From Anthoceros angustus (lineage: Eukaryota > Plantae > Anthocerotophyta): a stretch of DNA of 18,857 bases. The stretch covers positions 1 through 18,857 of the forward strand of contig VJWM01000400.1 in NCBI GenBank assembly GCA_010909165.1, given 5' to 3'. A model generated the notes under the pieces. The model had not been told where the DNA came from. It ran no database searches and saw only the letters and a program-made list of their open reading frames with translations. Positions 1,000-18,857 of this stretch are shown here, piece after piece. Numbering within the stretch: the stretch's first letter is position 1; every line of letters begins with the position of its first letter. The position numbers were made by a program, and so were the translations under genes.

Positions 1000-1009
1000 G
1001 TTATCCAAA

Positions 1010-2124
1010 TACTTGGTATAGTCACCCGTGCCTCGAAAGATCTGGTAGTGTTTATACTTTGCCAATCCTTTCGTTACGCCGACGTTAGAATCAGGCACAT
1101 AACCCACCTTCACGACTCCACTACATCTCTAATGTAGTGATGTTGTATTCTATATGCTTAGTGCGGGCGTGAAAACGTGGATGAGCAAGGGCTAAATGAT
1201 ATGTTATCACATGATGGGGGTAGGTGTCTGCCGGGTCATAAGTCATGAAGGAAGGTCCTTTCCCATTCAGCCTCCTTTGAAGCATCCGTAATGATTTGTA
1301 TTCGCCTGTACAGTGGCTATGGAAGATTGCTTTTACACGACCGCACCACAAAGAAAGAAGATAACAGGAAGCAATATGTGGAGAGGCTTTTCCTGAATCG
1401 CCCCGACGCCCGGCATCGATGAACCCCTAAGGGTGAGTTTTGCTGCCCATCCTTCGATAGAAGAGTCCATAATTGGGTTCCTTGAGATAGCGGAAAATCC
1501 GACGCTGAGCTCAATGTGCTCTTCCCGGATTCTCCGTAAATTGTGATACCGTGCTTATAATCGGATATCCGGCCTTGTCCAGCTAAGAAGATTAGTGCCA
1601 ACCGTGCATAATCAGGGGACATCCTTCATGTCCTTAAGTTCTTCCGAGATTGAGGGCCTCAAGACTGGTAAGTTTAACGCCCATAAAAGGGGTAGTTGAG
1701 GGTCTAGCTTCGCCAAGTTTGAACTGCGAATATCATTGATGTACTTATGCCGTGAACTATCCTTCTTCCGCACTTTAAGATTTGAACTCCCAACAAGATT
1801 TAAGTTCTCCGATGTCTTTCATCTCGAACTTGGTACTTAGCTTATGTTTAACGCCGCCCAATGTGTCTTGTGGCAAGAATGACATCATCAACATATAGGG
1901 CTAATATGACGGTCGCCTTGATCGAGTCGGTAAACATTAGAGTCTCATTGCTTTGGACAAAAGATATACCGAAAGGAGTAAACATGCATAGTGATATACC
2001 AAATTCGCCACTTTGTTTTAGTCCATATATACACTTGAGCAATTTGAGCACTTTGGTGGGATGTTCGTGATCTTCATACCCATGCCTCATATCTATCTTC
2101 ATCCGAGTCTCCATAGAGGCCGTG
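1010..2124 (-). pseudogene. pol: Copia pol: RVT_2-type reverse transcriptase (C-terminal part) and Ty1/copia RNase H, frameshifted
   Basis: ORF fragments 1848-2216, 1317-1622, 1121-1351 and 886-1113 carry successive copia RT/RNase H motifs in the expected order. The end coordinate is approximate. Confidence 0.92.
2120..2124. repeat. Left target-site duplication CCGTG
   Basis: Identical CCGTG at 18433-18437. Removing the insert restores a continuous copia RT. Confidence 0.92.
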
Positions 2125-2429
2125 TATGGAGCATAAAGTTTGAGCAACCAGTCAAAAGAGCCGAACAAACAAGTTTGATTTTTTTGGCTAGGAACGATTG
2201 AAGAGGAGCATGCCAAGAAATTTTCTAGAATCTTGAAGCTGGAGTTTAGGATATTGTTAGGAAGGCGAAAAGGATATCCCAGAAGAACGGGTCAACGACC
2301 CCGAGCGAGCGGTGGCGTCCGAAGGTTGGTAGGGCGGGACTACCACGTGAGGCTGCCACACCTGCCGGTAGGCAAGGAAGCGGACTACCGCAGTGGTGTA
2401 ACTGTAGGGCGAAAATCTCGCTAAAAGGA

Positions 2430-2578
2430 AATTTAGAATAGAGGGATATCCACTATATATGCTCACCAATAGGGAATAAATATATATAATTAGAAGCGGT
2501 TAATTAGGATAGCGAGGAAGAGGAAAATAGGTAGTTTAGGAATTAGGATTTTGGAATGATGAATCCAATCTAGGGTTG
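2430..2578 (+). promoter_or_regulatory. AT-rich TATA-containing island upstream of the LTR gene (copy at ~13710-13850)
   Basis: CACTATATATGC (2451-2462) and AATATATATAAT, ending TCTAGGGTT just before the inferred ORF start. AT-rich within an otherwise GC/purine-rich LTR. Confidence 0.45.
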
Positions 2579-2585
2579 TGGCCCA

Positions 2586-5500
2586 GTGGCGACATCAAAG
2601 GCAAAGTGCGGTTTGGGCAACTCTCTTCGCTCCTCCACTTCGCAAGAGCTGGACGAGCGGGCGTGGAGCGAGAAGGAAGGGCCATCAAGCGCCATCGCCA
2701 CCACGAGCAAGGGAGGGAAGGGAGAGCGGCGCCATCGAGAAAGGAGAACCCAGCAAGTTGGCGCCAAGAGGAGGAAGGAGAAGAAGAGCGCAGCGCCAGG
2801 AGGAGGAAGCTCTCGCGCCCGAGAGGAAGGGCGTCAGGAGCGCGGTGGGTAGCGCAGTGAAATTGAAGAGGATGACCAGTCGGCGCACCACGAAGAGGAA
2901 TCGAAGGAATTGGCGGCTGGGCGCATCAAGCCTAACGTATTGTGCCTCGGGGAGGGTTACCACAAGGGAGAAGGAGTTTGAGAGCAAGCCTGAGATTGCC
3001 AATTAGATTCCTTCCTTGACACTTGGAAAAGGAAGGCGCCATGCCTCGATGGAAAGGCAAGGAGCCGCCAGGCTCTCCTCGCGAGAAGGAAAGAGCAGCG
3101 GTGAGCTCGCCCTGAGGAGGTCGATGCCCCAATTCACTTGCTTTGGGCGCTCAACCCGAGATTTGGTTGATTTTCGTGGGCGAGGAGAACATCCAATTGG
3201 GATGGGTGTATGGCCGCCAATGGGCCTACACCAATTTGGAATTGATTGAGGAGTGTTACATCAACCTCCATCAATCGGGCTGCCGCACTCGGAAGGAATG
3301 CTAGAACGGATCCCTGGACCGTGAAGAAGCATTCGGCAGTGTATGGGACCGGAGGAGAGAGCTGCTCTCTCGAAAGGTCCAATGGAGGGAAGAGGACATC
3401 CCTCCGACATCCCGCAGAGTTCCTTGACATGATGGAGGAGTGAAAGCCCACGCCAAGAATGGCTGGAAGACCGAGAGCATCAAGGAGTCAAGTGGAGGCT
3501 CTTCGCAAAGATTGTCTGGGGGTAAATTACCAACGCACTTCTTATTTCAAAGACCAACTTCCTCCAATTTTGTGGAAGATTTCCATGGGAGCCAAGCCGG
3601 ATTGGGGACTATCATGTATGAGGCCTACATCCACCAGAGAGAAGCTCCTCAAGCCAAATTCGTGGATGAGGAAGGCCAAGGCCTGCTACCTCTACTTGGT
3701 GCATTTATGGGAAACCGAGGGACTCCTCACAAGCAAGGAGCTTGAAGATGCATGGCATCCCTTTGAGGTCATCCACCTCCAAGGTTGGAAAGGCCTTTAC
3801 CTTTTGCAAAAGGCGGTGGGAGGTCGACCTCCACAAGCATGCTAAGCAAGAGGAGAAGATGGAGGCAACAAGGTTGCGGTGGGAATCTCTTCCCACGAGC
3901 AAGCAAGGGAGAGGAGCAAGAAGCGGCCGAGGAAGGCCGAATGGTGGTCTATGAGAGAAGGACCACAGGAGGGGTGACGGAGTGGGGAGTCCCCACCATC
4001 TCCTTTGTGCCTACGAGAGGCACCCCAGACTACCGGTAGGGAGGCGGTCACCCAAGGGGTGGGCACTACCGTGGTGGTGACCTACCATGGTAGGTAGGCG
4101 GACTACCACAGAGGGGCGGCCTACCCGCGGTGGCAGCACCCGCCGCCCAAAGCGGCCTCTGGCGGGGAAGGGAAGGAGAAACGCGAGGTGCCGCGGCGAG
4201 GCCACCATCTCCCGCGCTGGGTGGGAGGCGGATGGAGCAGTGAAGGGACCCAGGCCGCTGATGGCCCGGTGGAGAGCTGGAAATTTCCAGAAGAAGGAGA
4301 GGGTGGAATTAGGACCCCTAGGAGAATTCTGGGAGCTTGTGAAGCACTCACCCGCGTGGATTTGAAGGGGCTAGGGACCTAGCAGCCTCCTTGTGGGCAT
4401 GCCAAGAGGAAGTGAAATCTCAAGACATGGCCGGCGGGGACTAAGTGGCAATTGGAAGCCATGGAGTCCGATGAAAAGCCAAATTGGAAAAGGTCAGGAG
4501 AAGCTCCAACGACCTCATAGAACATGCGGAGAAGGCCCTGAGGGAAGTTGTCACAAGTCAAGAAAGAGCCATTCGGCAACAACCCAAAATTCTTGGAGGC
4601 AAAAGGCGGAAGAGCATTTTGCCCAACTGAGCAAGAGGAAAAGCAAGGCGAGGCACTAGGAAGGAGAAGGTAGCCTCAAGAAGTGGCCGCATGAGCAGTG
4701 ATGGCTACTCAAGCTATCAAAATCCGGATATGGGAGAGGAGTTGAGAAGGACCCGGACAATTTATGGAAGAGGCGGAGGAGAAGCACAAGAGAGCTGGAG
4801 CGAAAGGATGCTTGGCAAGCGGAGAAGGAGGGCTTGCCCGGAATTAGACTGGAACAAAGGAGGTCTCAGGAGGAGGAGCGCCACAAGAAGGTGGTGCATG
4901 AATCGGTAGTGAGGAAGCGGCGATTTTGGGCACTATGCCCTTCGTGCAAAATTGGCCAGCCACTAAAGGAAGGAGGAGGAGAATGTAACCTCCATGTGAA
5001 GGTGGGAGAATTAACCACCGAGATGCCTACAAGGTAGGTGTGGATGGAGAGTGGCCACGGAGATTGATGATCTCCAAATGCAATATCACAACTTGGGGCT
5101 CACCTCCACAACAGATCTTGAAGGCCAACAAAGTCTTACGGTTGGCCAAAGGAGGACATTGGGTCCTCATGATGATGATAAGGAGCGCAACAAGTGCAGC
5201 CGAGGCCTCCGATTTTGATGAGGCCATCAAATGGACTCGAGGAATCCGAGTCGAGGTGAAGGGCACCGCGCCGGGATCGGGAGGCGCGGAGAGGGGAGAG
5301 GGCCCCGCCTCAGGGGTCACCTACCAGGTGGGTGACCACCCATAGTCCGCCGGACTACCGTGGGGGACACCACGCCCGGTAGTCGCCGCACTACGCAGGT
5401 GCAGCGCAGCTTGTTGAGTTGGGACGCGCCCAACAAGATGGAAGGGCCGGTGTACCCTAAAGAGGGGTGGTGGGAGACACAACCCCACCGGAGGAAACTA

Positions 5501-5982
5501 TGGGTCCGACCCGTCGGGGAGGAAGGGTGAGGCCCTTATCCCACGAGTAAGGGAGGAACCGGACCCGAGGAGGAGTCCAACGCAAAAGGGCCCGGAGATT
5601 AGCGTAAAACGCATGGTGGGCGATGGGGATGAAGGGTGCTCTATGATAGGTATGGACAAATCACAAGGCAAAGAGCAATGAAGATCCGACCAAGAAACCC
5701 TCACCGCGGAGAAGAAGGAAGTAAGAGAGTTAGGGGCCGACTACCATGGTAGGTGTACCTAGAGTCCGCGGACTACCGTAGGGTGCGATGAAATGGCGCG
5801 AGGCGATGGAGAAAGGCCTAGGTGCGCGGGAAGCGCGATGGAGGCAGGAATCGCCGCCCGGAGATGGAGGAAGGGCAAGATTGTACTTGCCCCATTAGGA
5901 AGCGGACAAAGGTGGGAAGGGCAAGAGCAAAAGGAGGGCGAGGGAGCCAATCCACCACGGACACGTCCCAGGTGAAGACTAG
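2586..5982 (+). pseudogene. LTR-embedded accessory gene of unknown function, 5' LTR copy (frameshifted; one long ORF or possibly two)
   Basis: E/K/R-rich N-terminus; globular-looking block at ~3125-3800 (KAHAKNGWKTESIKE..LRKDCLG.VNYQRTSYF..LWKISMGAKPDWG..YLVHLWETEGLLTSKELEDAWHPFEVIHL); then charged coiled-coil-like regions. The limits are approximate. Confidence 0.7.
4025..4135. repeat. Cluster of CTACCRYGGTAG-type palindromic repeats (5' LTR)
   Basis: CTACCGGTAG 4030-4039; perfect 16-bp palindrome ACCTACCATGGTAGGT 4080-4095; further CTACC copies at 4066, 4103 and 4121. Confidence 0.85.
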
Positions 5983-6198
5983 ATATGGTCAAGGGCCATA
6001 AATGCTAGGTAGAAGAATAGGAAGGACAGTGATGTAATCGACATCCTTCGAGGATAGACTTAGGTGAAGTTGCTAGAATAGGATTTACCAAGAATGACAA
6101 TAGACTTAGGTGCCGGACATTAAATCTCGGTAGGAAATAATAGAATATTGGAAAAGGTGACTGCAGAGGGTCACCCAAGGGAGGTTGTATGTGGAAGG

Positions 6199-6215
6199 CC
6201 TCCTATAAGAGGAGG
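6199..6215 (+). promoter_or_regulatory. Putative main LTR TATA box (TATAAG 6204-6209) within the inverted repeat CCTCCT-ATAAG-AGGAGG
   Basis: About 880 bp before the LTR end, conserved in the 3' LTR (17388-17393), and preceded by a 13-bp direct repeat ATAGACTTAGGTG (6054, 6100). Confidence 0.55.
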
Positions 6216-6697
6216 ATTTCACAAAGTAAAGTATCATGTCTTGCGCTTCCACGCTCACCGAGTCCTTTGAGGAATTTCGTGCCTGTGAGCCAACACAGTC
6301 TGGTAGAGAGGAAGTCGCGGTGGTCGGAGTGCTTGGTGGAGGACTTGCTCAAGTGCCTAAACGAGTTGCTCCCTTGTGAATGGTTGCTGAAATTGCTTTG
6401 CTTGGTGTGTGGCAAATGCCCAGAACTCGGCTTGAGGGTAGACTACAGGAAAGACTCCTGGAGGTTCTCACGTCTGGTCAAACTCATAGCAACCGCCCAA
6501 GGAAGAACTTGGTGGAGGCGACCCAGGCGGTTGTGCCAGTAGTCGAAGAAGCCCGAACGAGGTTAGACTAGGAGGAAGAGGATGAGGAGATGAGAAGATG
6601 AGTAGAGGATTAGAGGTGTAGGTGTTAGTGGAAGGCCACAGGCGAGCCTAAGGGACGAATCCCAAACTGCAAAGAGCGCTCCGAGTGGAGAAGAGTG

Positions 6698-6850
6698 GTC
6701 TTAGAAGTAGGGACGAATCGCGGTGTGAACTGGGGTCCGGCGCCGTGGTAGGCTCCCGGCGACCCGTTGTGTCGTTGTAGGTCAAGTTTGGTCTTAGAAG
6801 AAGGGGCAATCGCGGTGGTAGTCGGAGGCGACCCGGGTGTCGTAGGTGGG
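6698..6850 (+). repeat. 5' LTR version of the tandem repeat: one full unit plus one degenerate start
   Basis: GTCTTAGAAGTAGGGACGAATCGCGG at 6698 and GTCTTAGAAGAAGGGGCAATCGCGG at 6791. Confidence 0.8.
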
Positions 6851-7086
6851 GTCACGAGGCAATTGTTTTGTGAGAGAGTGTAGGTGCGCGAGGCTGTGGT
6901 GCAGGGAGAGAGAGTAGCGCCTTGCTTGTTGAAGGCGAGAGTTGTGCGGTGGCGATGGTGACCACAAGGCCTCGAACTTTCACACAAGTCTCATGGGACG
7001 AAACCCAACGTCTGGCGGCGTGGGATAAGTGTGGCCGCTATAGTGGGAGGACCTGGGAGTGCCCCGGATTCTCCCTACCACATTTT

Positions 7087-7101
7087 TGGCGCCGTTGGGA
7101 C
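7087..7101 (+). other. Primer-binding site, most likely tRNA-Asp type
   Basis: TGGCGCCGTTGGGAC, 4 nt after the LTR end. The first 11 nt match the Athila-type PBS TGGCGCCGTTGCCGGGGA, with an apparent internal deletion. A tRNA-Arg type PBS is not excluded. Confidence 0.8.
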
Positions 7102-7695
7102 TTTGTTTGAAAGGTTGAAGTTTTGTGGTTTCCATCGCTAGGTCAGCATGCTTGAGAAGGGACCGAGTCGACCATGTGTTGTGAGGAAGAAGCTTCACAC
7201 CTTTAGTTGTCATCGGGGTGAATGGTTGAGACACTAGAGGGTGTGGTTTGCTTCCTTCTTAACGTTGTGAGGATGGTTGGAGGCGGGAGGAAGCTCACCA
7301 AGAGACGTGGAAGAAATCGCCTTGGCCGGAAGGCGGAGGTGCGAGAGCAGCGGAAGAAGAGTGGAGGAGGAAGAGATCAAGAGTGAGAGGAAGGAGGTCA
7401 AAGAAGAGGAAAGTGGTGTGAGGAAGGGTCGCGCTCCTCCGAGCACGGTTACGTCCACGCCGTCGCGGACGACGCTTTGCTTCTCAAAGCGGTGACACCA
7501 CCTCATCCCTGAGACCGATGTGGCAGGTCGCCGAGCGGGAATTTCGCTTGGTCGGAGGATTTGGCGGAACGACTCGATCGATCATCGTCGATTGATCTTT
7601 GGGACGAACTAGAGGGAGGTCGCTACTCCTCAAGGATCCCGATTTGTTTCTGTTACCGGCGAGGAGTGTTGGTCCGTGGACACTCACCGAGCAAC

Positions 7696-9000
7696 ATGAG
7701 TGGAGTTGGTGGAGGAGGACCGCCCAACTTCATAGTCGCCAATACGCCAAATTCGAAGAAGAAGGGAGATGACGCGAGGCGTTTAAGAACTTTTGAGCAT
7801 GTCTCCCATGCTAACTTGGAGGATGGAGACGCCGATCGACTACGCATCTTTCCAGGACTGTTGAGAGGGCATGCACAACAGTGGTACGGTCGCACCTATA
7901 ATTCGGTCGCCATTGGGAAGCTCAAAGCAGCCTTCTTGAATCGGTTCGAGGGCTCACTATGCACACCACACTTTAGCAAAGCCGAGGACCCCTAGGAAGA
8001 AAGCGAGAATCTTTGTTTGATTATGTGAGAGGTTTTACGGATATCCGGATCGAGTTCAAATGTGCACCCGAGAGGCCAGATCCACCACCTGGTACTCACA
8101 AGAGCAAGCGTGGATTGGTTTGTGAGCGGCTTGTCTCGAAAATGGAGGTACACTGCACGCGTCAGACGTTGGCGGCCTCCTCCTTGAGGAATGGGAGTCC
8201 GCCGAGTTAGGGAGGAGAAGAAGAAGAGGCGAAGTCATAAGAAGAGGAAAGGATCGAAGATCTAGCTCCTCGTCGCCACCTCCTCCAGCTCGCCACCCTG
8301 TCCTCATCGAAGCGAGGATAGCGGAACTCAAGAAAGCTCCACATCGGATGAGGAATCAGAAAAGGCCTACGAACGGCGAATAAAGAAGGACCTGGAGAAG
8401 GTCAAACGAAGGCAGGAAGAAGCGGAACGCGCACTGGAGAAGGAGAGGAAGGGGAAGACGGTCCGTCGGATGGAGGAGGGAGAAACGTCTGCAGCAGGCG
8501 GAGGAATTGCGGGACAAGTGGAGGCTTTGACCAAAAGATTGACCGAGTTAGAGGTCAAAGCTGTGAAGAATCAAGCTCCACGAAGGTCTCCCTCACCGGC
8601 AAGGCAGTTGGTGTATTGCTCAATTTGTCATCAAGCGGGACACACCAACCGGGAATGTATTCGTGCACCACGACATGCGGTCATGTGGAAACCGCATGCC
8701 GGGGGACTATTGGTATGTGGATGAAGCTTATCGTGCAAGCGGTCACAGTCGGCCACCTCAATCCATGAGGCGACTTACCAACCGACTACACCAGCCCTCG
8801 AGGTATGGATCGCGACCGACATCGCCAGACCATGGAGACCAGATCCATCCAGAGGCCGATGGCGATTCCACAGGGGGTTGTTACAATTGGAGCACCAGTC
8901 ACTACTCAAATGAATGTCCGTAACCACGAAAAGTGGGCTATGTACCCCAAGTCTGCAAGGAATTAGGACATAAAATGGGGATCCAGTGCTCGGTGGTGTG
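7696..9000 (+). pseudogene. gag: Gag (Retrotrans_gag-like capsid, charged coiled-coil, CCHC zinc knuckles), frameshifted
   Basis: TFEHVSHAN..RLRIFPGLLRGHAQQWY..LKAAFLNRF; CSICHQAGHTNREC at 8617-8658. The start is uncertain: ATG 7696, but coding-like sequence extends up to ATG 7273. Confidence 0.88.
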
Positions 9001-9739
9001 AGTGGCACCAGCTGGGCCGAGTCGGTTCGGAACCCTGGTAGAGGAGGCAAGGCCCAACTCAAACCGCGATCGTGACCACGACACCGGTCAAGGTGAGGCG
9101 GAGATTCCCCGATCGATTGCACATCGTGGATCGTGGAAGAGGGGTATGAAGGAGAGATGAGTGCGGATGAAGGATTGATGGTGGCCAAGGTGACCACCGA
9201 TCAGCGGGGAGAAAGGCCGAGGTAGGAAAACGGCGAGAGGAAAGGAAGCGGAGAAGGTGAGGGACGACTCACCGCCTCCGAGACGCGCGTCAAGCGCGTG
9301 AGGAGGAGGAGGCCCACCCCAAAGTAGACTGCCGTCATGGGGGCAGGGGCCAAGGAGAGGAGGAACGAACCACGTTTCCTCCCGACATCAAAGAAGTAGC
9401 GGCCGGAAGATGAGCTAAACAGCTCACCCGCATGGGAAACGAATGTGGAGCGAAATTATTGATCCGCCGGTATGGGTCCCAACCGATAGGAGGGATCATG
9501 GAATCGGGCTTTACCAATAAGGTCGGGTCGGTCGACCAGCGTGGCTGCAAGCGGAGGAAACCTTGTCGGATAAAATCTCCAGACGCTACTTGACCGCTTT
9601 GTGGTCACGAGATTGCTTGCTGAGTCCAGATCCCGCAAAATTGTGAAGGAGGCGATCGGGGAATCAAGTAGTAGGAGGAGAAAGCGGCTGGAGGTAAATG
9701 TGGTCGAACTCATTGATTTGGGGCACCCAGATTGAGGTT

Positions 9740-10020
9740 GAAATTGCGGGTGTTTGGTGCCCGTGCCATTAGATTCGGATCGAGTCAACTTGATGGAGGA
9801 GACGGCTCATCAACTCGGGTTCACCGAGTTTCACCCGCCCGAGTATTTTACGGATGGCCGACCAGACAAGGAGAAAGCCACTAGGGGTCAAGGACGTGCC
9901 CACTGAATTGGGGACTCACCTTCCATCTTACCTACATTGTGATGCGGCCGGTTTGATCTAGGCTATAAGGTTTTGATAGGTAGGCCTTGGTTGTATGGTC
10001 GTGTGTTTTTGATTTTGGTC
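9740..10020 (+). pseudogene. pol: Aspartic protease, frameshifted
   Basis: AI-DS(G)S-VNL active-site-like motif at ~9763-9790 and GYKVLIGRPWLYG at ~9961-10000. Confidence 0.8.
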
Positions 10021-10379
10021 GAGTGGCATCACCTTCAAGTCCAGAGACACGGACTGGCGATTGCTTTGTGTCATGGAGTAAGGCTCCTTATGAGGGGAGT
10101 CTGCAACCCGGACGTACACCTCGTAGCACGGGGTAAGCTCCTCGGCGTGGCATATCGGGGTCCCTCGAGGTCGCCAAATAAAGAGTGATTTGGTGTATAC
10201 TGTTTACATATAGAGGAAGTCATAGAAGAATCAAGATGAGGCCCATAGAAGGAGTAGCCTTTGGAAGGGCAAAGCTTATGAGCGAGACTTTCCGGAGGGA
10301 TCCGAACAGATAGGCAGGAAGGAACTTATGTAGATCCGCGGTGGAGGACTTAGAGTTAGAACCGCAAGGTAGTCAAGGT

Positions 10380-11240
10380 TTCTAGGTATCTAGGGCGGTG
10401 GAAAAGAAGAGTTTCGTAGTGCTTAGGAGTATGTCGATGTGTTTGCCTTCAAGATTACGACATGACAGAATTGAGGAACTGGGATACATCGAATTGATTT
10501 GAAGGAGGGCAGACCAAGGATCAAGCAATCTGAATCCCAAGTATTCCATGGTTGTAAGGATCAATCGACCAATACTTGGAGCAGGTGATTTATCCGGTGC
10601 TTACCGGTGAGTGGGTTGCTCCATCGTGTACCAAAAAGCAGGAAAGGTTCGTGTGTCGATTTGAACAATGAAGCAAGAAGGACCACCCTTGCCTTTCATG
10701 GACAGCGTGTGACACGATGGTGGCCATGAAATGTACGATCGGATGGGTACTGTTACAATCGATTTCGTTGAGGAAGGAGGATCAGATAAGACAACGCTCA
10801 CAACGGATTGGGGAACTTACGCTTATTCCAAGCTGCCCTTCGGGTTGTGTAACGCCCGCCACTTTCAACGAGTGGTGATGAACGATATTCCGAGATTTTT
10901 ACGGAAGTTCATGGAAGTATTCCTAGATGATTTCGTGTGTTGGGAGGCGAACCGTAGATCATTTAAGGCAATGTTTCAGAGATGCAGAATCGAACATGAA
11001 ACTCATCCGAAGTGTTATTTTGGTATGTGGAGGGTATCCTGTTGGCACATCGAGTTTCGTGAGCGAGGATTGCGTAGATAAGGAGAAGGTAGCGATATGA
11101 GATGGACGCGCACAAACGGTGAGGCGGTCGTGCTTTTGTAGGGCTGTAGGATATTACAGAGGTTCATCAAGGATTTCGCCAAGAAGGCCTTGTTGACACA
11201 ATTGACCAAGAAGGATACACCTTCGAATGGACAACGCAGG
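10380..11240 (+). pseudogene. pol: Gypsy reverse transcriptase, frameshifted
   Basis: GKVRV, LPFMD, TTDWGTYAYSKLPFGLCNA, MEVFLDDF (10920-10934), YYRRFIKDFAK. Confidence 0.95.
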
Positions 11241-11249
11241 CGAGGCTTT

Positions 11250-11660
11250 TCAGCTTGAAGGACATTGGTGAGCGCGCCCAACTGCAACCACCGGATTGGG
11301 GAAAAACCGTTTCATGTATACGTGATGTGTCCGCTTGCCATTGGGACCGTCTTGCCGAAGGACGAGAAGAAGCGGGATCATCCGATTTTCTATGCGGTAG
11401 ACAGCTCACGGATCGAAAAGAACTACTCAACCACGGAGCGGGAGGGTCTTGGTATCATTTACTCGTAAGAAGTTTAGACACTATCGCTTGCTTGCAAGGT
11501 GGCTTCATGTTGACCATTTTGCGTTGAAGTATCTTGTCAACAAGCCGATTTGTCGTGAAGGATTGCCGGTGGGTACTATGCAAGAGTTTGACTACGACGT
11601 CGAAACCGGCCAGAAAGCAACATCGACGCTGATTTCATTTCTCGTCTGGCGGAGCGACTT
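11250..11660 (+). pseudogene. pol: Gypsy RNase H, frameshifted
   Basis: PPDWGKPFHVYV, AIGTVL, HPIFYA, EKNYSTTEREGLGIIYS, KKFRHY, HVDHFALKYLVNKP, MQEFDY. Confidence 0.93.
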
Positions 11661-12199
11661 GAGGCAACGACCGATTTCACGAGGAGTTGGTCGCCAGACT
11701 GGTCAAGGAGAAGGACACGAGCATAATGAAGACGGCCTAAGAAGTGATCAGCAAGTCTTGTTGCTAGAAGAGAGGCCAAGTGAGCAAGAAGGAACGCGTT
11801 GTGAAAAGCGCAGGACAACTGGAAATCCGAGAGAGGATAGAGGCGCCATGGCCGAGGAGGAGGCTGAAATGCTCCTCAAGGGTGAGCGGTCAGCTGCAAG
11901 TGGAGGCCACGAGTTGGCAGGAAGGAGATGCATCCCATGACAAGCTTGAAGAAAAGCAGAAGGAAATGGCGGGATCATGGGAAATCGCCCATGAGGCGAT
12001 CATGAGCACTGGGCCAAGAGTGAGGCCGGGGCCGTAAGAAGCGAAATCGGCCCATTGCGGAAAAGTATGCGAGATGGTGCACCCAGTATGTGAACCTAGG
12101 AGAAGCAAGAGGCGATGGATTACGGATAGATCCACGCCACTTGGGGCTGCACGACGATAGCGGGAGGCGGCACGCCTGGGAGGAGGAGATTGGAACGCG

Positions 12200-13370
12200 A
12201 GGGGCGTTCGTGTCCGAGATATCTGAATGAGGTAATGCAAATTTCGGAGCATGGAACCATGCCCGATGGTTGTCGAGGGAGGCGGCTCTTTCTCCATAAA
12301 GCCTCGCCCTATGAGGGCGGTGTCCTGTAAACAAGGTCCGGACGATAAAATTCGAGATGCCTCGACGGAGAAGCTTCACTCGTCAGGCATGCGTAAGAGG
12401 CGGTGGACACTATTCGTGCAGTGACCGTTAAGAAGATTTTGAATGCGGGATTCGTGGGCTACGATGCAAAAGGATGTGTGGGAGTTCACCGAGGTGTGAT
12501 GCGTGTCGAGGGTTGGGCGGCCACGTTGTCGACACAATGGCCTCTTACCTACATCTTACCAGCACCTTCGAGAAGTGGGGATCGATTTCGAGGACCGATC
12601 AAACCACCAACGCAATGGACTAAGCGACATTTTGGTATACGGACTATTGTACAAAGATGGTGGAAGCGAGCAAGGAAGGATGACGCGCTGCGGTGGCCAA
12701 ATTTTTATTCGAGAACATCATAACGAGGTAGGATGTCCTTTAGAGTTGGTCGACGGGGACACATTTCCTCAACTCGGTCGAGTCCCTAACCACCTACTTC
12801 AACATCCGGCATCGAACGACTCCTTACAACCCAAAGGCAAATGGATTGTGGAGAAGACGAATGGGTTGCTCGCACAATCCTCACCAAGGTAACGTGACGC
12901 ACATGTATGATTGGGATGCTAAGTTGCACTCGCATTGTGGGCCTACAGACGCGGAAAAGATAACCACAAAGAAGACACCATATTATCTAACATATGGTAT
13001 GTCTCACCTGATGCCGTGGAATTTGAAGTACCTACCTCTGAGATCATGGAGGATGAACGGATGGTAGAGGATAGTCGTAGCTAGGTTAGAAGCTTTCATA
13101 GCACAGGAGGAGCATAGGGAGGATGCTTTAGAAGAAACACATGGATTCGGAACTCGAAAAGATCGGCATGATGGGAAGTTAAGGAAGCGAGACTATCGTG
13201 GACGGGATTTGGTTCTTCTATATGATAGTCGGCCTAGACTTTCCAGGAAGCTCAGCTAAGATGGATGGGACCTTACGAGGTGGTCGCAGTATAGAATGGA
13301 TGCAACTCGGGTCGGGCGGCGAATTCGCCGACCAGTCAATGGGTGGAAGGTCAAGAAGTACCTCCAGTAA
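12200..13370 (+). pseudogene. pol: Gypsy integrase (HHCC zinc finger, DDE core, GPY/F), frameshifted
   Basis: H..GGHY, KKILNAGF, CDAC (~12495), WGIDF.GPI, KGNG.VEKTNG, WD.KLH, TPYYLTYG, WMGPYEV (~13262-13282), VKKYLQ* (TAA 13368-13370). Confidence 0.93.
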
Positions 13371-13389
13371 TTGTTGCGAGGGCGCAAAC

Positions 13390-13404
13390 AGATGAGGTGG
13401 GGAG
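13390..13404 (+). other. Gypsy polypurine tract
   Basis: AGATGAGGTGGGGAG, 19 nt after the integrase stop and 2 nt before the 3' LTR TG. Confidence 0.85.
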
Positions 13405-13856
13405 TATGTGGAACGCATAAAGTTTGGGCAACCAGCCCAAAAGAGCCAAGACAAACAAGTTTGATTTTTTTGGCTAGAACGATTGAAGAGGAGCATGCCA
13501 AGAAATTTAGAATCTTGAAGTGGAGTTGTAGGATATTGTTAGGAAGGCGAAAAGGATATCCCAGAAGAAGAAAAACGACCCCAGACGGTGGGGTGGCCGT
13601 CAAAGGTTGGTAGGGCATCTACCACCGTAGGCGCCACACACGCCGTGTGAAGGGAAGCATCTAAGCGGTGGTGGCATCTACCGCGGTAGGGCGAATCTCG
13701 GCTAAAAGGAAATTTAGAATAGAGGGGATATCCACTATATATGCTCAATAGGGAATAAATATATAGTAATTAGATTAATTAGGATAGCGCGAAATAGGAA
13801 AATAGGTAGTTTAGAATTAGGATTTTGGAATGATGAATCCAATCTAGGGTTGTCTA

Positions 13857-16800
13857 GTGGCGGACATCCAAAGGCAAAGTGCTTGGCGCCAACTTCTCTT
13901 GAGCAGGCCTCACTTCAAAGCTGGGGCCGGAGGAGAGCGAAGGGAGAAGGAAGGGCCATCGCCGCGCCGCCATCACGCCGAAGGAGGAGGAAGGAGCGCG
14001 CGAAGAGAGGAGAACCCCGAGCGGAGAGGAAGGAAGAGAAGCCGAGCCGCGCCAAGGAGGAGAGCTCCTCGGAGAGCATTGGAAGGAGCGGAGGGGCGAG
14101 AGGGGAAGCGGAAGGCGAGTGCGTGAAGGAGGAGGTGACCAATCGAGAACGAGAGAATCGCAAGGAAAATTGGCAGCAGCGTGCTCACAACGTGTTGTGC
14201 CTCAGGGGGTACCGGAGAAGGAGCGTTTGAAACAAGCACAGATTGAATTGAATTCCTTCCTTTGAGCTTGGAGAGAAAGGCATGCCTCGAGCTGGAAAGG
14301 CAAGGGAAGGAGCCGCCAAGGCTCTCCTCGCGAGGAGGAAAGGAAAGAAGGCGGTGGGCTGCCAGGGAGGTGAACATGCCCCAATTCACTTGCTTTTGGG
14401 CAGCTCCTCGAGATTTGGTTGATTTTGCGGAGGAGGAGAACATCCAATTGGGATGGGTGTATGGCCGCCAATGGGCCTACACCAATTTGGAATTGATTGA
14501 GGAGTGTTACATCAACCTCCATCAATCGGGCCCTGCCGCTGAGAGGAATGCTAGAACGGATCCCATTGGGAAGAAGCATTCGACAGTGTATGGAAGACCG
14601 GAGGAAGCTCGAATTGCTCTCTCGAAAGGTCGAATGGAGGAAGAGGACATCCTCTCGACATCCCGCAGGAGTTCCTTGACATGATGGGGAGGAGTGAAAG
14701 CCCACGCCAAGAATGGCTGGAAGACCGAGAGCGTCAAGGAGTGAAGTGGAGGCTCTTCGCAAAGATTGTGCTGGGGCTGGTAAATTACCAACGCACTTCT
14801 TATTTCAGCACCAACTTCCTCCAATTTTTGTGGAAGATTTCCATGGGAGCCAAGCCGGATTGGGGACTATTGTATGAGGCCTACATCCACCCGAGAAGCT
14901 CCTCAAGCCAAATTCGGTGGATGAGGAAGGGCCAAGGCCTATCTTAGCACCTATTTGGTGCATTTATGGGAAACCGAGGGACTCTCACAAGCAAGGAGCT
15001 TGAAGATGCATGGCATCCCTTTGAGGTCATCCACCTCCACCGAGGTTGGAAAGGCCTTTGCCTTTGCATTGCAAGACGGTGGGAGGTCGACCTCCACAAG
15101 CATGCTAGAAGCAAGAGGAGAAGATGCGGAGGCAACAAGGTTGCAGTGGGAATCTCTTCCCCAGGGGCAAGCAAGGGAGAGGAGGGAGCGGCCGGAGTGA
15201 AGGCCGAATGAGAGAAGGACCACGGGGAGGGGTGACCCAGTGGGGAGTCCCCACCATCTCCTTTGTGCCTACGAGAGGAGCACCTACCGTGATCTACCCA
15301 AGGGGTGGGCGGCCTACCGTGGTAGGCGGTCTACCATGGTAGGCGGACTACCAGTGGGGGCACCTACGGTGGCGGGCACCCCGCCCGCAAGCGGTGGCGG
15401 GAAGGGAAGGAGAAGCAGCGGTGCGCGGCGGCACCACCCTCTCCGCGGGTGGGAGGCGGATGGAGCAGTGAAGGGACCCGGCCGCGATGGCCGAGAGGCT
15501 GGAAATTTCCAGCAAGAAGAAGAGGGGTGGAATTAGGACCCCTAGAATTCGGGAGCTTGTGAAGCACTCACCGCGTGGATTTGAAGGGGCTAGGGACCTA
15601 GCAGCCTCCTTGTGGGCATGCCAAGAGGAAGTGAAATCTCAAGACATGGCCGGAGCGAGGACTAAGTGGCAATTGGAAGCCATGGAGTCCGATGAAAAGG
15701 CAGCCAAATTGGAAAAGGTCAGGAGAAGCTCCAAGCGACCTCATGGAAGGAGAGAAGGCCCTGGAGGGAAGTTGTCACGTCAAGAAAGAGCCATTCGGCA
15801 ACAACCCAAAACTTGGAGGCAAAAGGCGGAAGAGCATTTTGCCCAAGAGCAAGAGAGGAAAAGCAAGGCGAGGCACTAGGAGGGGAAGCAAGCAACTCGC
15901 AAGTGGCCGCATGAGCGGTGATGGCTACTCAAGCTATCAAAATCCGGATATGGAGAGGAGTTGAGAAGGACCCATACAATTTGGAAGAGGAGCCAGCGGA
16001 AGCACAAGACCGGTGAGAGCGAAGGAAGCTTGGCGGAGAAGGAAGCTTGCAGCAGGACTGGAACAAAGGAGGTCTCAGAGGAGGCGCCACAAGAAGGTGG
16101 TGCATAGAATCGGTAGTGAGGAAGCGATTTTGGGCGACTATGCCCTTGAGGCAAAATTGGCCAGCCCTAAAGGAAGTGAGGAGGAGAATGTAACCTCCAT
16201 GTGAAGGTGGGAGAATTAACCACCTCAGAGATGCCTACAAGGTAGGTGCGAGGAGAGTGGCCCACGAGATTGATGATCTCCAAATGCAATATCACAACTT
16301 GGGGCTCACCTCCACAGATCTTGAAGGCCAACAACGAAGTCTTACGGTTGGCCAAAGGAGGACATTGGGTCCTCATGATGATGTAAGGAGCGCAACAAGT
16401 GCAGCCGAGGCCTCCGATTTTGATGAGGCCATCGTGAAATGGACTCAGGAATCCGAGTCGGGAGGTGAAGGAGCCGCGCCAAGGATGGGAGGCGCGGAGG
16501 AGGAGGGACAGCCCGCCCTCGGGGTCACCTACACGGTGGGTGACCACCTACCAGTAGTCTGCCGGACTACCGTGGGGCCGGTGGTCGCGGACTAGGGTGG
16601 TGCAGTGCCCGCGGCGGTTGGGGAGTTGGGGGCCAGCAAGATGGAAGGGCGGGTGGTATACCCAGGAGCAGGGGTGGTGGGAGACAACCCCACCGGAGGA
16701 AACTAAGGGCGGTCCGACCCGTCGGAGGGGGGAAGGGTGAGGAATCCCTTATCACAGTAAGGAGGAGGGCAGGAGGAGTCCAACGCAAAAGGGCCCGGAG

Positions 16801-17176
16801 ATTAGGCAAAAATCATGGTGGGCGGATGGGGATGAAGGTGCTCTATGATAGGTATGGACAAATCACAAAGGCAAGAGCAATGAAGATCGACCAAGAAACC
16901 CTCACACGGAGAAGGGGAAAGAAGGAAGTAAAGAGCGACTACCATGGTAGGTTCACCTACCCCGTAGTCCGGACTACAGTAGTCGATGCGCGCCGACGGA
17001 GGCGAGAAAAGGCGCCTAGGTGCGCGAAGATGGAGGCAGGAATCACGCCGCCCAGAGATGGAGGAAGGGCAGATTGTACTTGCCCCACATTAGGAAGCGG
17101 ACAAAGGCGGGAAGGGCAAGAGCAAAAGGAGGCGAGGGAGCCAATCCACCAGACACGTCTACCCGGTGAAGACTAG
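13857..17176 (+). pseudogene. LTR-embedded accessory gene, 3' LTR copy (frameshifted)
   Basis: Fragments 14262-14684 (NIQLGWVYGRQWAYTNLELIEECYINL), 14681-14947, 14966-15211, 15487-15879, 16257-16595 (AHEIDDLQMQYHNLGL) and 16826-17176 (MKVLYDRYGQITKARAMKIDQE) are colinear with the 5' copy. Confidence 0.72.
15280..15375. repeat. Cluster of ~17-bp tandem units GGCGGNCTACCRYGGTA (3' LTR)
   Basis: CTACC at 15314, 15331 and 15348 (period 17); CTACCATGGTAG 15331-15342. Confidence 0.85.
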
Positions 17177-17382
17177 ATATGGTCAAGGGACCATAAATGC
17201 TAGGTAGAAGAATAGGAGTGTATCGACATCCTTCGAGGATAGACTTAGGTGAAGTTGCTAGAATAGGATTTACCAAGAAAGGACAATAGACTTAGGTGCG
17301 GACATTAAATCTGGCGGTAGGAAATAATAGAAAATTGGAAAAGGTGACTGCGGTAGGGTCACCCAAGGTTGTATGTGGAAGG

Positions 17383-17399
17383 CCTCCTATAAGAGGAGG
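17383..17399 (+). promoter_or_regulatory. 3' LTR copy of the putative TATA box
   Basis: CCTCCTATAAGAGGAGG; ATAGACTTAGGTG repeats at 17239 and 17286. Confidence 0.5.
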
Positions 17400-17896
17400 A
17401 GGATTTCACAAAGTAAAGTATCATGTCTTGCGCACGCTCACCGAGTCCTTTGAGGAATTTCGTGCGGTGAGCCAACATGTCTGCAGTAGAGAGGAAGTCG
17501 CGGTGGTCGGAGTGCTTGGTGGAGGACTTGCTCGTGCAAGTGCCTAAACGAGTTGCTCCCTTGTGAATGGTTCTGTGAAATTGCTTTGCTTTGGGTGTGT
17601 GGCAAATGCCCGAGAACTCTCGGCTTGAGGGTAGACTACAGGAAAGACTCCTGGAGGTTCTCATTGGTGTCAAACTCCACAAGCCCAAGGAAGAACTTCT
17701 GGTGGAGGCGGACCCAGGCGGTTGTGCCGTAAGGGCGAGTCGTCGATGAAGCCCAGGCGAGGTTAGACTAGGAGGAAGAGGATGAGGAGATGAGAAGATG
17801 AGTAGAGGATTAGAGGTGTAGGTGTTAGTGGAAGGCCACAGGCGAGCCTAAGGGCCGAATCCCAAATGCAAGTAAAGCGCTCACAGTGGAGAAGTA

Positions 17897-18210
17897 GTCT
17901 TAAGTAGGGACGAAATCGCGGTGTGAACGGGGGTCCACACGTGGTAGGCTCTTCTTCTTGAGGCGGGACCTGCAATTGTGTTGTGTCGTTGTAGGTCGAA
18001 GTTTGGTCTTAAGTAGGGACGAAATCGCGGTGTGAACGGGGGTCCACAGGCCCGTGGTAGGCTCCCTGGCGGGACCTTGTTGTGTCGTTGTAGGTCGAGA
18101 GTTGGTCTTAAGTAGGGACGAAATCGCGGGCGTGAACGGGGGTCACAGGCGCCGTGGTAGGCTCCTTGCTGCGAGGCGGGACCATAATTGTTACGTATCG
18201 TTGTGGGCCG
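17897..18210 (+). repeat. Three tandem ~100-110 bp repeats near the 3' LTR end
   Basis: Units begin GTCTTAAGTAGGGACGAAATCGCGG at 17897, 18006 and 18105. Confidence 0.9.
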
Positions 18211-18432
18211 AGGTTGGCGATTTTGAGCGATTGCAAGCGGTCGGTATGAGAGGGAGAGTAGAGGACCTTGCTTGTTGAGAAGGCGAGTTGTGCGGTGGCG
18301 ATTGGTGACCACAAGGCCTCGAACTTTCACACACAAGTCTCATGGGACGAAACCCAGCGTCTGAGCGGCGATTGGGATAAGTGTGGCGCTATAGTGGGAG
18401 GACCTCGAGTGCCCCGGATTCTCCCTACCACA

Positions 18433-18437
18433 CCGTG
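18433..18437. repeat. Right target-site duplication CCGTG
   Basis: Directly follows the LTR end ...CCCTACCACA and matches 2120-2124. Confidence 0.92.
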
Positions 18438-18750
18438 CACACGCCCATTTGTTGTAAGTCAGGTTCAACTCTGCGCCAGGTGCTACGAATGGATTGAGCT
18501 CGAACAACGGGTGAGAATGTTTCTTGGTAATCTAGGCCCTCAACAGGTAAATCCTCTTGCCACCGTCAGCTTTGTATCAGCAATCTCCCTTTGGAGTTGA
18601 GTTTAAGTTTAAAAACCCACTTGCTGTGAGGTCTGCGTCCGGTGGGAGGTCGTGATTTGCGGTCTTGTTCTTGGCGGTATTCATCCTCCTTCTTTGCCAC
18701 TTGGAGCAATCCCGGGCCAAGGAGGGCTTCCTTGTATGATAGGGGTTCCT
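18433..18750 (-). pseudogene. pol: Copia pol: RT N-terminal part, frameshifted
   Basis: EPLSYKEAL (~18748), KWVFKLKLNSKG (~18585-18625), VARGFT, and QMGVCT at the junction. Confidence 0.9.
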
Positions 18751-18857
18751 CGGCGGGGAGGATATTACATGTAGCACCAAAAGCTGCCGAAGATGTTGAA
18801 AATCGGCAGTTGATAACGGGGTTCTAACCAGCAGTGCGGAGGTAGCCTATGGCGTGT

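What the first reader, a model, noticed from the sequence alone, without database searches (positions are those of the whole stretch)
13407..18432. A gypsy element whose 5-kb LTRs carry a whole protein-coding gene in U3
Seen: the TSD, the PBS right after 7082 and the PPT right before 13407 show that the entire ~5 kb repeat is LTR. Only 36 nt separate the integrase stop from the LTR. Both LTRs hold the same ~3.4 kb sense-strand coding remnant upstream of the putative TATA box. Established: Athila/Tat-type elements usually carry extra ORFs in the internal region between pol and the PPT. Genes inside U3 are known from retroviruses (MMTV sag, part of HIV nef). Inference: this family has moved its accessory gene into U3, so each replication duplicates it and each solo-LTR would leave a free-standing gene with its own promoter.
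Basis: partly seen in the sequence, partly recalled or inferred. Interest (0 to 1): 0.8.

Follow-up and report, generated by a model that had tools for sequence, protein, structure and literature searches.

The report
Retrotransposon carrying a gene inside LTRs
A jumping gene in what is likely a hornwort or related plant has two 5-kb end repeats that each hold about 3.4 kb of likely protein-coding sequence, so each new copy would carry two copies of an extra gene whose product likely helps regulate the element or shield it from silencing.

Summary
Structure confirmed: a 16.3-kb Ty3/gypsy element (2125-18432) sits inside a copia RT gene. It has 4958/5026-nt LTRs, a CCGTG duplication, a PBS, a PPT and 36 nt between the integrase stop and the 3' LTR.

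No intact gene is visible, because the contig is full of indels (348 gaps against 227 mismatches between LTRs). Coding is supported indirectly. Sense-strand stops are depleted only in the LTR middle (z -3.6, -3.9; gag-pol -4.5). Of 7 variants in run X1, 5 are synonymous in frames fixed beforehand. In X1, summed depth over the gene's core is LTR-like, about 4x the integrase end, so this is unlikely to be a one-off.

'U3' is inferred: a TATA-like box lies on each side of the gene and no RNA was found. No homologue or fold was found. A palindrome, CTACCRYGGTAG, occurs only in the LTRs.

This scan noted the same layout before on other DNA, including two probable liverwort elements (unreviewed). 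My limited searches found no paper describing it in plants. Verdict: new variant of accessory-ORF gypsy elements.

The parts
2120..2124 (+). Target-site duplication CCGTG (left)
2125..7082 (+). 5' LTR, 4958 nt
2453..2460 (+). TATA-like box 1 (CTATATAT), upstream of the LTR gene; candidate promoter of the gene
   Evidence: function inferred
2546..6000 (+). Frameshifted coding remnant in the 5' LTR
   Evidence: stop depletion z -3.9; lag-3 periodicity z 2.8
6203..6210 (+). TATA-like box 2 (CTATAAGA); candidate promoter of the genomic RNA
   Evidence: function inferred
7087..7097 (+). Primer-binding site TGGCGCCGTTG (tRNA-Asp type by recall)
7600..13370 (+). gag-pol, frameshifted: GAG ~7790-7950, zinc knuckle ~8590-8660, protease ~9610-10000, RT ~10430-11100, RNase H ~11160-11675, extra ~480 nt, integrase ~12270-13370
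   Evidence: tblastn with Riccia polyproteins; RVT_1 weak hit; protease named by its position, not by a Pfam hit
13390..13404 (+). Polypurine tract
13407..18432 (+). 3' LTR, 5026 nt, TGTGG...CCACA
13619..13689 (.). Cluster 1 of the palindrome CTACCRYGGTAG, in the non-coding LTR head (5' LTR: 2340-2396)
13735..13742 (+). TATA-like box 1 in the 3' LTR
13830..17176 (+). Frameshifted coding remnant in the 3' LTR: G+A-rich start, conserved core ~14400-15050, G+C-rich linker, charged segment ~15560-16460, shared stop at 17174-17176; start codon unknown
15284..15352 (.). Palindrome cluster 2 (5' LTR: 4030-4125)
16548..16575 (.). Palindrome cluster 3 (5' LTR: 5321-5366)
16939..16961 (.). Palindrome cluster 4 (5' LTR: 5741-5777)
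17387..17394 (+). TATA-like box 2 in the 3' LTR
17870..18165 (+). 99-109-nt tandem repeat in the tail of the 3' LTR
18433..18437 (+). Target-site duplication CCGTG (right)
1848..2124 (-). Host copia RT, part left of the insertion (downstream in its own reading)
   Evidence: RVT_2 E 1.3e-6
18433..18857 (-). Host copia RT, part right of the insertion
   Evidence: translation continues the RT motif at the duplication; no Pfam hit on the 2 ORFs tried

Best explanation
This is a non-chromovirus Ty3/gypsy retrotransposon whose two 5-kb LTRs each hold about 3.4 kb of likely protein-coding sequence, likely an accessory gene in U3 with its own promoter, whose product would likely be a soluble nuclear regulator of the element rather than an envelope protein. 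Shown: LTR limits, TSD, PBS, PPT, gag-pol filling the internal region, the sense-strand coding signature, and LTR-like depth in run X1. Inferred mechanism: the genomic RNA starts after TATA box 2 (about 6235) and ends in the matching part of the 3' LTR, so it carries one copy of the gene at its 3' end. Plus-strand priming at the PPT just after integrase makes everything from 13407 to R part of U3, and reverse transcription copies it into both new LTRs. TATA box 1 would drive a separate mRNA from either LTR, and LTR-LTR recombination would leave a solo LTR with gene and promoter. The simplest origin is an Athila-type 3' accessory ORF that came to lie downstream of the PPT in use. Most speculative step (about 0.35): the protein binds the palindrome CTACCRYGGTAG, arrayed in four clusters per LTR, to trans-activate or unsilence its own family, as VANC does for its DNA transposon.
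For: Boundaries and target split. Stop depletion confined to the sense strand of the LTR middle, ratio 0.76-0.78 against 0.80 in gag-pol; 3 of 4 sub-segments of the 3' LTR remnant at z -2.0 or lower. In 34 gap-free blocks shared by both LTRs, 39 stops against 48 expected, P 0.047. Of 7 X1 variants in the gene core, 5 are synonymous in frames fixed beforehand (expected fraction 0.20-0.27; P 0.004-0.018); the other 2 are synonymous in one other open frame (post hoc). X1 summed depth: integrase end mean 1058 (5 bins), first LTR bin 4611, gene core mean 4209 (10 bins). Six of 7 paired LTR bins exceed the highest of 9 internal bins. No 15-residue window above hydropathy 1.4 in any sense frame of either remnant. 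Palindrome: 11 of 11 matches in the LTRs, 1.1 expected; half-site CTACC 13 + 13 in the LTRs against 1 in the 6.3-kb interior. VANC is described as a DNA-binding anti-silencing factor structurally like the plant mobile domain (10.1101/2024.09.27.615353, passages). That domain is also found in Ogre extra ORFs (PMC6317226).
Against: No intact reading frame and no start codon in this copy. No sequence, profile, language-model or fold match for the protein, so any link to Athila, PMD or VANC proteins is analogy only. Lag-3 periodicity is not specific: the 5' LTR tail also scores z 2.7. Sub-segment 15561-16460 is weak (z -1.1). The all-frames-closed test was not significant (P 0.14). The variant test has only 7 sites. 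X1 depth is uneven: 7 of 30 bins have none and 13788-14379 is essentially uncovered. The tool warns that summed contig depth is no copy number, and X1 may be the assembly's own sample. Mid-gene paired depths are only 1339-1705. A TATA-like box upstream of the gene allows an R/U5 location.
Confidence: 0.6

Rival explanations
1. The gene is inside the LTR but in R/U5. TATA box 1 (2453) starts the genomic RNA, U3 is only about 360 nt, the gene leads the RNA like a 5' extra ORF, and TATA box 2 drives a separate gag-pol message.
For: CTATATAT at 13735/2453 is followed 20 nt later by AATAAA in the 3' LTR, and palindrome cluster 1 lies just upstream, as an enhancer in a short U3 would. 5' extra ORFs with long LTRs are known (Retrosat2 ORF0, PMC3485330, passages).
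Against: Minus-strand strong-stop DNA could have to be up to about 4.6 kb long (from the general mechanism of reverse transcription, own knowledge). The context of TATA box 2 resembles typical plant LTR promoters (recalled), and it leaves an ordinary tail of about 1 kb with tandem repeats.
Confidence: 0.2
2. The architecture is as described, but the palindrome is a host transcription-factor site (for example a stress-responsive MYB-type element), and the protein acts elsewhere, such as in particle assembly, nuclear import or integration targeting.
For: Plant LTRs carry repeated host-factor sites: Tto1 has a 13-bp element and is regulated by NtMYB2 (seen only as reference titles in PMC4108030; the likeness of the motif is recalled). 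Athila-domain proteins are predicted to form coiled-coil pentamers with many host contacts (PMC13547354, passages).
Against: Three of four clusters lie within the coding span, spread over 3.3 kb rather than grouped at a promoter.
Confidence: 0.35
3. The 3.4 kb is a dead passenger or non-coding purine-rich expansion, or this locus is a one-off rearrangement or misassembly.
For: No intact ORF and no homologue. The contig is noisy. Purine-rich DNA gives stop-poor frames easily.
Against: Depletion is measured against dinucleotide-preserving shuffles and is strand- and region-specific. Synonymous bias among variants. Clean TSD, PBS, PPT and inverted termini at both ends. High depth over the gene core in X1.
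Confidence: 0.1
4. The gene is an env-like membrane protein, as proposed for some Athila 3' ORFs.
For: Sense orientation downstream of pol on the genomic RNA, the position of env-like ORFs (PMC7264820, parts 1-2 of 3).
Against: Highest 15-residue hydropathy 1.33 and 1.38 in the sense frames of the two remnants; T content about 0.16. Frameshifts could hide a short hydrophobic stretch.
Confidence: 0.05

Closest known systems
Athila elements with a sense 3' extra ORF (ATHILA ORF-1, PF03078)
   Same: Non-chromovirus gypsy, 5-bp TSD, Asp-type PBS (72% of Athila, PMC6317226 supplement file 3; the tRNA identity of this PBS is recalled), no added RNase H, sense accessory ORF downstream of pol.
   Different: Reviews place these ORFs in the internal region between pol and the 3' LTR (PMC7264820). 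Here only 36 nt are internal and the ORF is in both LTRs. No PF03078 or PF20167 hit. Lineage not placed.
Phygy (Physcomitrella) and aRH-less Tat Z1/Z2 of non-flowering plants
   Same: Nearest named integrases are bryophyte. The polyprotein fills nearly the whole interior, as in Phygy. The target contains NCGN. No added RNase H, as in Tat Z1/Z2 (PMC10508981, passages).
   Different: Phygy: 4-bp TSD, tRNA-Trp PBS, 7.7-10 kb, no extra ORF. This element is 16.3 kb with 5-kb gene-bearing LTRs.
MMTV sag/naf in U3
   Same: An ORF in the LTR with its own U3 promoter (PMC9412291, passages), duplicated at each replication.
   Different: MMTV is a vertebrate retrovirus with env; the coding span here is about 3.4 kb; no sequence link was tested or implied; U3 is inferred here.
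Retrosat2/RIRE3/RIRE8 (ORF0) and other non-chromoviruses with LTRs up to about 5 kb
   Same: Very long LTRs together with an orphan extra ORF (PMC3485330; PMC6317226 section 13).
   Different: ORF0 is described as upstream of gag-pol; the passages read do not place it in the LTR.
VANC and plant mobile domain proteins
   Same: Transposon-encoded accessory proteins described as DNA-binding anti-silencing factors; a working model for the protein plus palindrome.
   Different: No homology shown here; VANC belongs to a DNA transposon.

Membership tests
Ty3/gypsy LTR retrotransposon | GAG-PROT-RT-RH-INT order | tested here: met
Ty3/gypsy LTR retrotransposon | Direct LTRs with TG...CA, TSD, PBS, PPT | tested here: met
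   the 5' LTR begins TA, one change from TG
Athila | RT/RH/INT phylogeny | tested here: inconclusive
   quick tree on 111 columns, window row on a 2.6 long branch, no labelled Athila references; 99 of 101 hits used
Athila | 5-bp TSD and tRNA-Asp PBS | tested here: met
   tRNA assignment recalled, not matched against a tRNA here
Athila | Extra ORF internal, between pol and the PPT | tested here: not met
   36 nt between the integrase stop and the LTR
Athila | ATHILA ORF-1 or Transposase_32 domain in the extra ORF | tested here: inconclusive
   no Pfam hit on frameshifted pieces; only 16% of Athila carry PF03078
Phygy | 4-bp NCGN TSD | tested here: inconclusive
   target begins CCGT, but a 5-bp reading needs fewer changes
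Phygy | tRNA-Trp PBS, 7.7-10 kb, no extra ORF | tested here: not met
   16.3 kb, Asp-type PBS by recall, coding LTR
Tat with added RNase H (including hornwort Tat A) | Additional RNase H domain | tested here: not met
   the extra ~480 nt between RH and INT give no Pfam hit in three frames and no visible aRH motif; frameshifts limit the test
Tat Z1/Z2 (no added RNase H) | Position on RT and INT trees | not testable with these tools
env-like ORF | Transmembrane segment | tested here: not met
U3-encoded accessory gene (MMTV sag type) | ORF between the PPT and the genomic transcription start | not testable with these tools
   no RNA holder listed; two TATA candidates

The most novel reading that the evidence does not exclude
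A bryophyte lineage of gypsy elements has turned its LTR into a self-contained gene cassette. It encodes a sequence-specific regulator of about 1,100 residues together with arrays of that regulator's own palindromic target. Every insertion doubles the gene, and every solo LTR remains a working anti-silencing unit for the family after recombination has removed gag-pol.
Probability: 0.25. Interest if true: 0.85.

Novelty: new variant of a known kind. Interest (0 to 1): 0.6.

Why it matters
Plant LTRs are treated as non-coding, and solo-LTR formation as the host's way of removing retrotransposon genes. The review read here places accessory ORFs in the internal region. An LTR-borne gene would survive solo-LTR formation and double at each insertion, changing the host-element balance. 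If 5-kb LTRs exceed the length limits of common LTR finders (own knowledge), such elements would be missed or their solo LTRs annotated as orphan host genes. The LTR-restricted palindrome also offers a direct test of a long-open question: what plant retrotransposon accessory proteins do.

Tried and rejected
No genome is held for the window, so other copies and solo LTRs could not be collected. No RNA holder was listed; X2 is only a guessed RNA run with 5 laid contigs, all under 90% alike.

Homologue searches for the LTR protein were all blank. Pfam on 39 and 10 pieces gave nothing above a curated cut-off. Word-based searches gave 203 and 442 candidates, none scoring, longer proteins only. HMMER over 1.84 billion representatives with a two-piece profile gave 0 hits. 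ESM Atlas best scores were 0.84 and 0.88, leads only; the second pointed to unnamed Streptophyta clusters. Viral contigs gave none. Metagenome contigs gave one 20-residue match that lies in no coherent ORF, rejected as chance. The queries were partly out of frame, so these blanks are weak.

Pol-based locus searches: viral none; genome contigs one unrelated element. A single-sequence fold of one 89-residue piece gave pLDDT 54, all helix, with no Foldseek match at E 0.001. Alignments A1 and A4 of staggered pieces were mis-registered and not used. The integrase tree was uninformative.

LTR divergence was rejected as a clock: 348 gap events against 227 mismatches, transitions 112 against transversions 115, and A/G 40 against C/T 9 away from gaps, point to long-read error. 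A nested TIR element as source of the gene: no terminal inverted repeat bracketing it was seen. A shorter LTR starting at 17373: no depth step between the gene core and the TATA-2 region (paired 5772 against 6059), though mid-gene bins are lower. The sigma-70 scan is irrelevant for a plant. Scan look-ups by sequence, relatives and near place were empty.
Full report
Structure. The window holds one complete element from 2125 to 18432 (16,308 nt). The repeats are 4958 and 5026 nt, flanked by CCGTG on both sides. The 3' copy runs TGTGG...CCACA and the 5' copy starts TATGG. TGGCGCCGTTG follows the 5' LTR after four T (7087-7097; single match). A purine tract ends 2 nt before the 3' LTR, and the integrase TAA lies exactly 36 nt upstream of it. 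The flanks are two halves of one copia RT on the minus strand, cut at the duplication (RVT_2 E 1.3e-6). tblastn with Riccia polyproteins places GAG, zinc knuckle, a protease-position segment, RT, RNase H and integrase in gypsy order across 7790-13361.

Sequence quality. The two LTRs align with 4409 matches, 227 mismatches (112 transitions, 115 transversions) and 348 gap events. Away from gaps, 100 of 2553 columns differ, with A/G 40 and C/T 9. Gag-pol and the host copia are equally frameshifted. The read tool listed 609 indel rows between the laid contigs and the window (12 shown), several at majority depth in run X1. I read this as long-read assembly error, so neither the age nor the intactness of this copy can be judged.

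Is the LTR middle coding? The longest sense stop-free stretch in it is 210 aa. Against dinucleotide-preserving shuffles, sense stops are depleted in the middle of both LTRs (89 against 116, z -3.6; 95 against 121, z -3.9), as in gag-pol (202 against 251, z -4.5). They are not depleted in the four head and tail segments (z 0.1 to -0.9) or on the minus strand of the middles. Sub-segments give z -3.2, -2.0, -1.1 and -2.2. In 34 gap-free shared blocks there are 39 stops against 48 (P 0.047), while the all-frames-closed count was not significant (P 0.14). Lag-3 periodicity is z 2.7-2.8, but the 5' LTR tail also reaches 2.7. X1 contigs show 7 substitution variants in 14507-14975. Five are synonymous in frames I had assigned from the translations beforehand, against an expected fraction of 0.20-0.27 (P 0.004-0.018). 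The other two are non-synonymous in my assigned frame and synonymous in another open frame, a post hoc observation. Two of the seven are majority differences from the window and may be window errors. Together this supports a gene under purifying selection, without showing it whole. The ATG at 13830/2556 closes after 5 codons in both LTRs; shared ATGs occur at 14282/3041 and 14376/3124; a shared stop lies at 17174-17176. No sense frame has a hydrophobic window above 1.38.

One-off or family? On 12900-15100, X1 summed depth averages 1058 over 5 integrase bins, 4611 in the first LTR bin and 4209 over 10 gene-core bins. Seven of 30 bins have no depth, 13788-14379 is essentially uncovered, and several bins near the junction are low. 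Over the whole window, paired LTR bins sum to 151, 5772, 1339, 1705, 1554, 6059 and 4467, against an internal mean of 673 and maximum of 1006. Of 6329 contigs, 775 fit two places and may count twice. An internal ORF would track pol depth, and the core does not. The tool warns that this is no copy number, and X1 may be the source sample, so it is supporting evidence only. Solo LTRs were not seen directly, since no genome is held.

What the protein is. Every search was blank, with partly out-of-frame queries. By eye the layout is a charged start, a helical core of about 200 residues, low-complexity linkers and a charged segment. This resembles accessory ORFs of non-chromoviruses and bryophyte transposon proteins as I recall them; that is a lead, not a test. 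The integrase's best named hits are Riccia sorocarpa (56%), Physcomitrium (49%) and Marchantia (49-51%) among 101 hits. 'Likely hornwort' comes from an unreviewed note on this genome (e1-10596208).

Mechanism. Two TATA-like boxes bracket the gene (13735/2453 and 17387/6203). If the second starts the genomic RNA, the gene is in U3, is copied from the RNA's 3' end into both LTRs, and would be expressed from the first box, like MMTV sag (PMC9412291, passages). I give this about 0.7 against R/U5, because the alternative could need a strong-stop DNA of several kb. A new PPT just after integrase would convert an Athila-type 3' ORF into U3 in one step; a recurrence of the junction 10-mer just before TATA box 2 fits but may be chance. 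The palindrome CTACCRYGGTAG matches 11 times, all in LTRs (1.1 expected), in four clusters per LTR, one in the non-coding head. I propose, at about 0.35, that the LTR protein binds it as a trans-activator or anti-silencing factor, by analogy with VANC and plant mobile domain proteins (10.1101/2024.09.27.615353, passages). A host-factor site is about as likely.

Comparison with what is known. PMC7264820 (parts 1-2 of 3, the main text) and PMC11963269 (passages) describe plant extra ORFs as internal. [quoted passage not shown] Nothing I read says whether LTRs were excluded, so LTR-borne cases may be hidden in it (TatII 23%/26%). Its Additional file 1 was not read and may bear on this. PMC3485330 (passages) places ORF0 upstream of gag-pol. 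PMC10508981 and PMC13468544 (passages) define Tat lineages of non-seed plants. PMC13547354 (passages) covers accessory proteins; PMC6673714 (passages) was irrelevant; PMC4108030 gave reference titles only. Five searches for ORFs inside LTRs returned 0, 36 (30 listed), 3, 23 (21 listed) and 5 papers. I opened three of them (PMC3485330, PMC6673714, PMC9412291) and judged the rest by title and abstract start; none showed a plant case. Most subscription papers are outside this library. The element works like a sag-type LTR gene and shares PBS and TSD type with Athila, but it fails the internal-ORF feature and its lineage is unplaced, so I do not file it as Athila, Phygy or Tat.

Earlier notes of this scan report the same layout on other DNA: two probable liverwort gypsy elements with 617-aa and 1,126-codon LTR genes, and cases in other genomes. 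They are unreviewed AI notes, I could not test homology, and they are not independent support. My anti-silencing idea preceded.

Verdict. Observation partly confirmed; interpretation partly supported; new variant of a known kind; interest 0.6. The architecture is surprising for plants and testable. This copy is too noisy to show the gene whole, and its function is inferred.

Noticed in passing
window 13619-13689, 15284-15352, 16548-16575, 16939-16961 and matching 5' LTR places: Palindrome CTACCRYGGTAG in four clusters per LTR; 11 of 11 matches in LTRs, 1.1 expected.
   Followed up: partly
window 13404-13413, 17371-17380, 6187-6196: The 10-mer at the PPT/LTR junction recurs just upstream of TATA box 2 in both LTRs; possibly a relic of an older LTR start, possibly chance.
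   Followed up: partly
window 13436 (runs X1, X2): Contigs share the first 30 nt of the LTR and then diverge (3 contigs in X1); the one X2 contig also covers the integrase end and PPT. This suggests a sister family with the same short 3' interior and a different U3 head. Diverged contigs also match the gene core near 14439-14563.
   Followed up: partly
window 11675-12270: About 480 nt more between RNase H and integrase than in a Riccia polyprotein; charged, no Pfam hit, no added-RNase-H motif seen.
   Followed up: partly
window 17870-18165: 99-109-nt tandem repeat with more copies in the 3' LTR than in the 5' LTR.
   Followed up: no
window 1000-2124 and 18433-18857, minus strand: The element interrupts a copia RT gene. 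The target CCGTG contains the NCGN motif preferred by Phygy.
   Followed up: partly
L002 1-5725: A gypsy-type polyprotein followed by a second ORF of envelope-like appearance (by eye) sits in a contig of a bacterial MAG, probably eukaryotic contamination.
   Followed up: no
PMC6317226 supplement file 3: TatII has sense extra ORFs on both sides at similar rates (23% 5', 26% 3') and Tekay at 33% and 18%; some could be LTR-borne ORFs that were not singled out.
   Followed up: no
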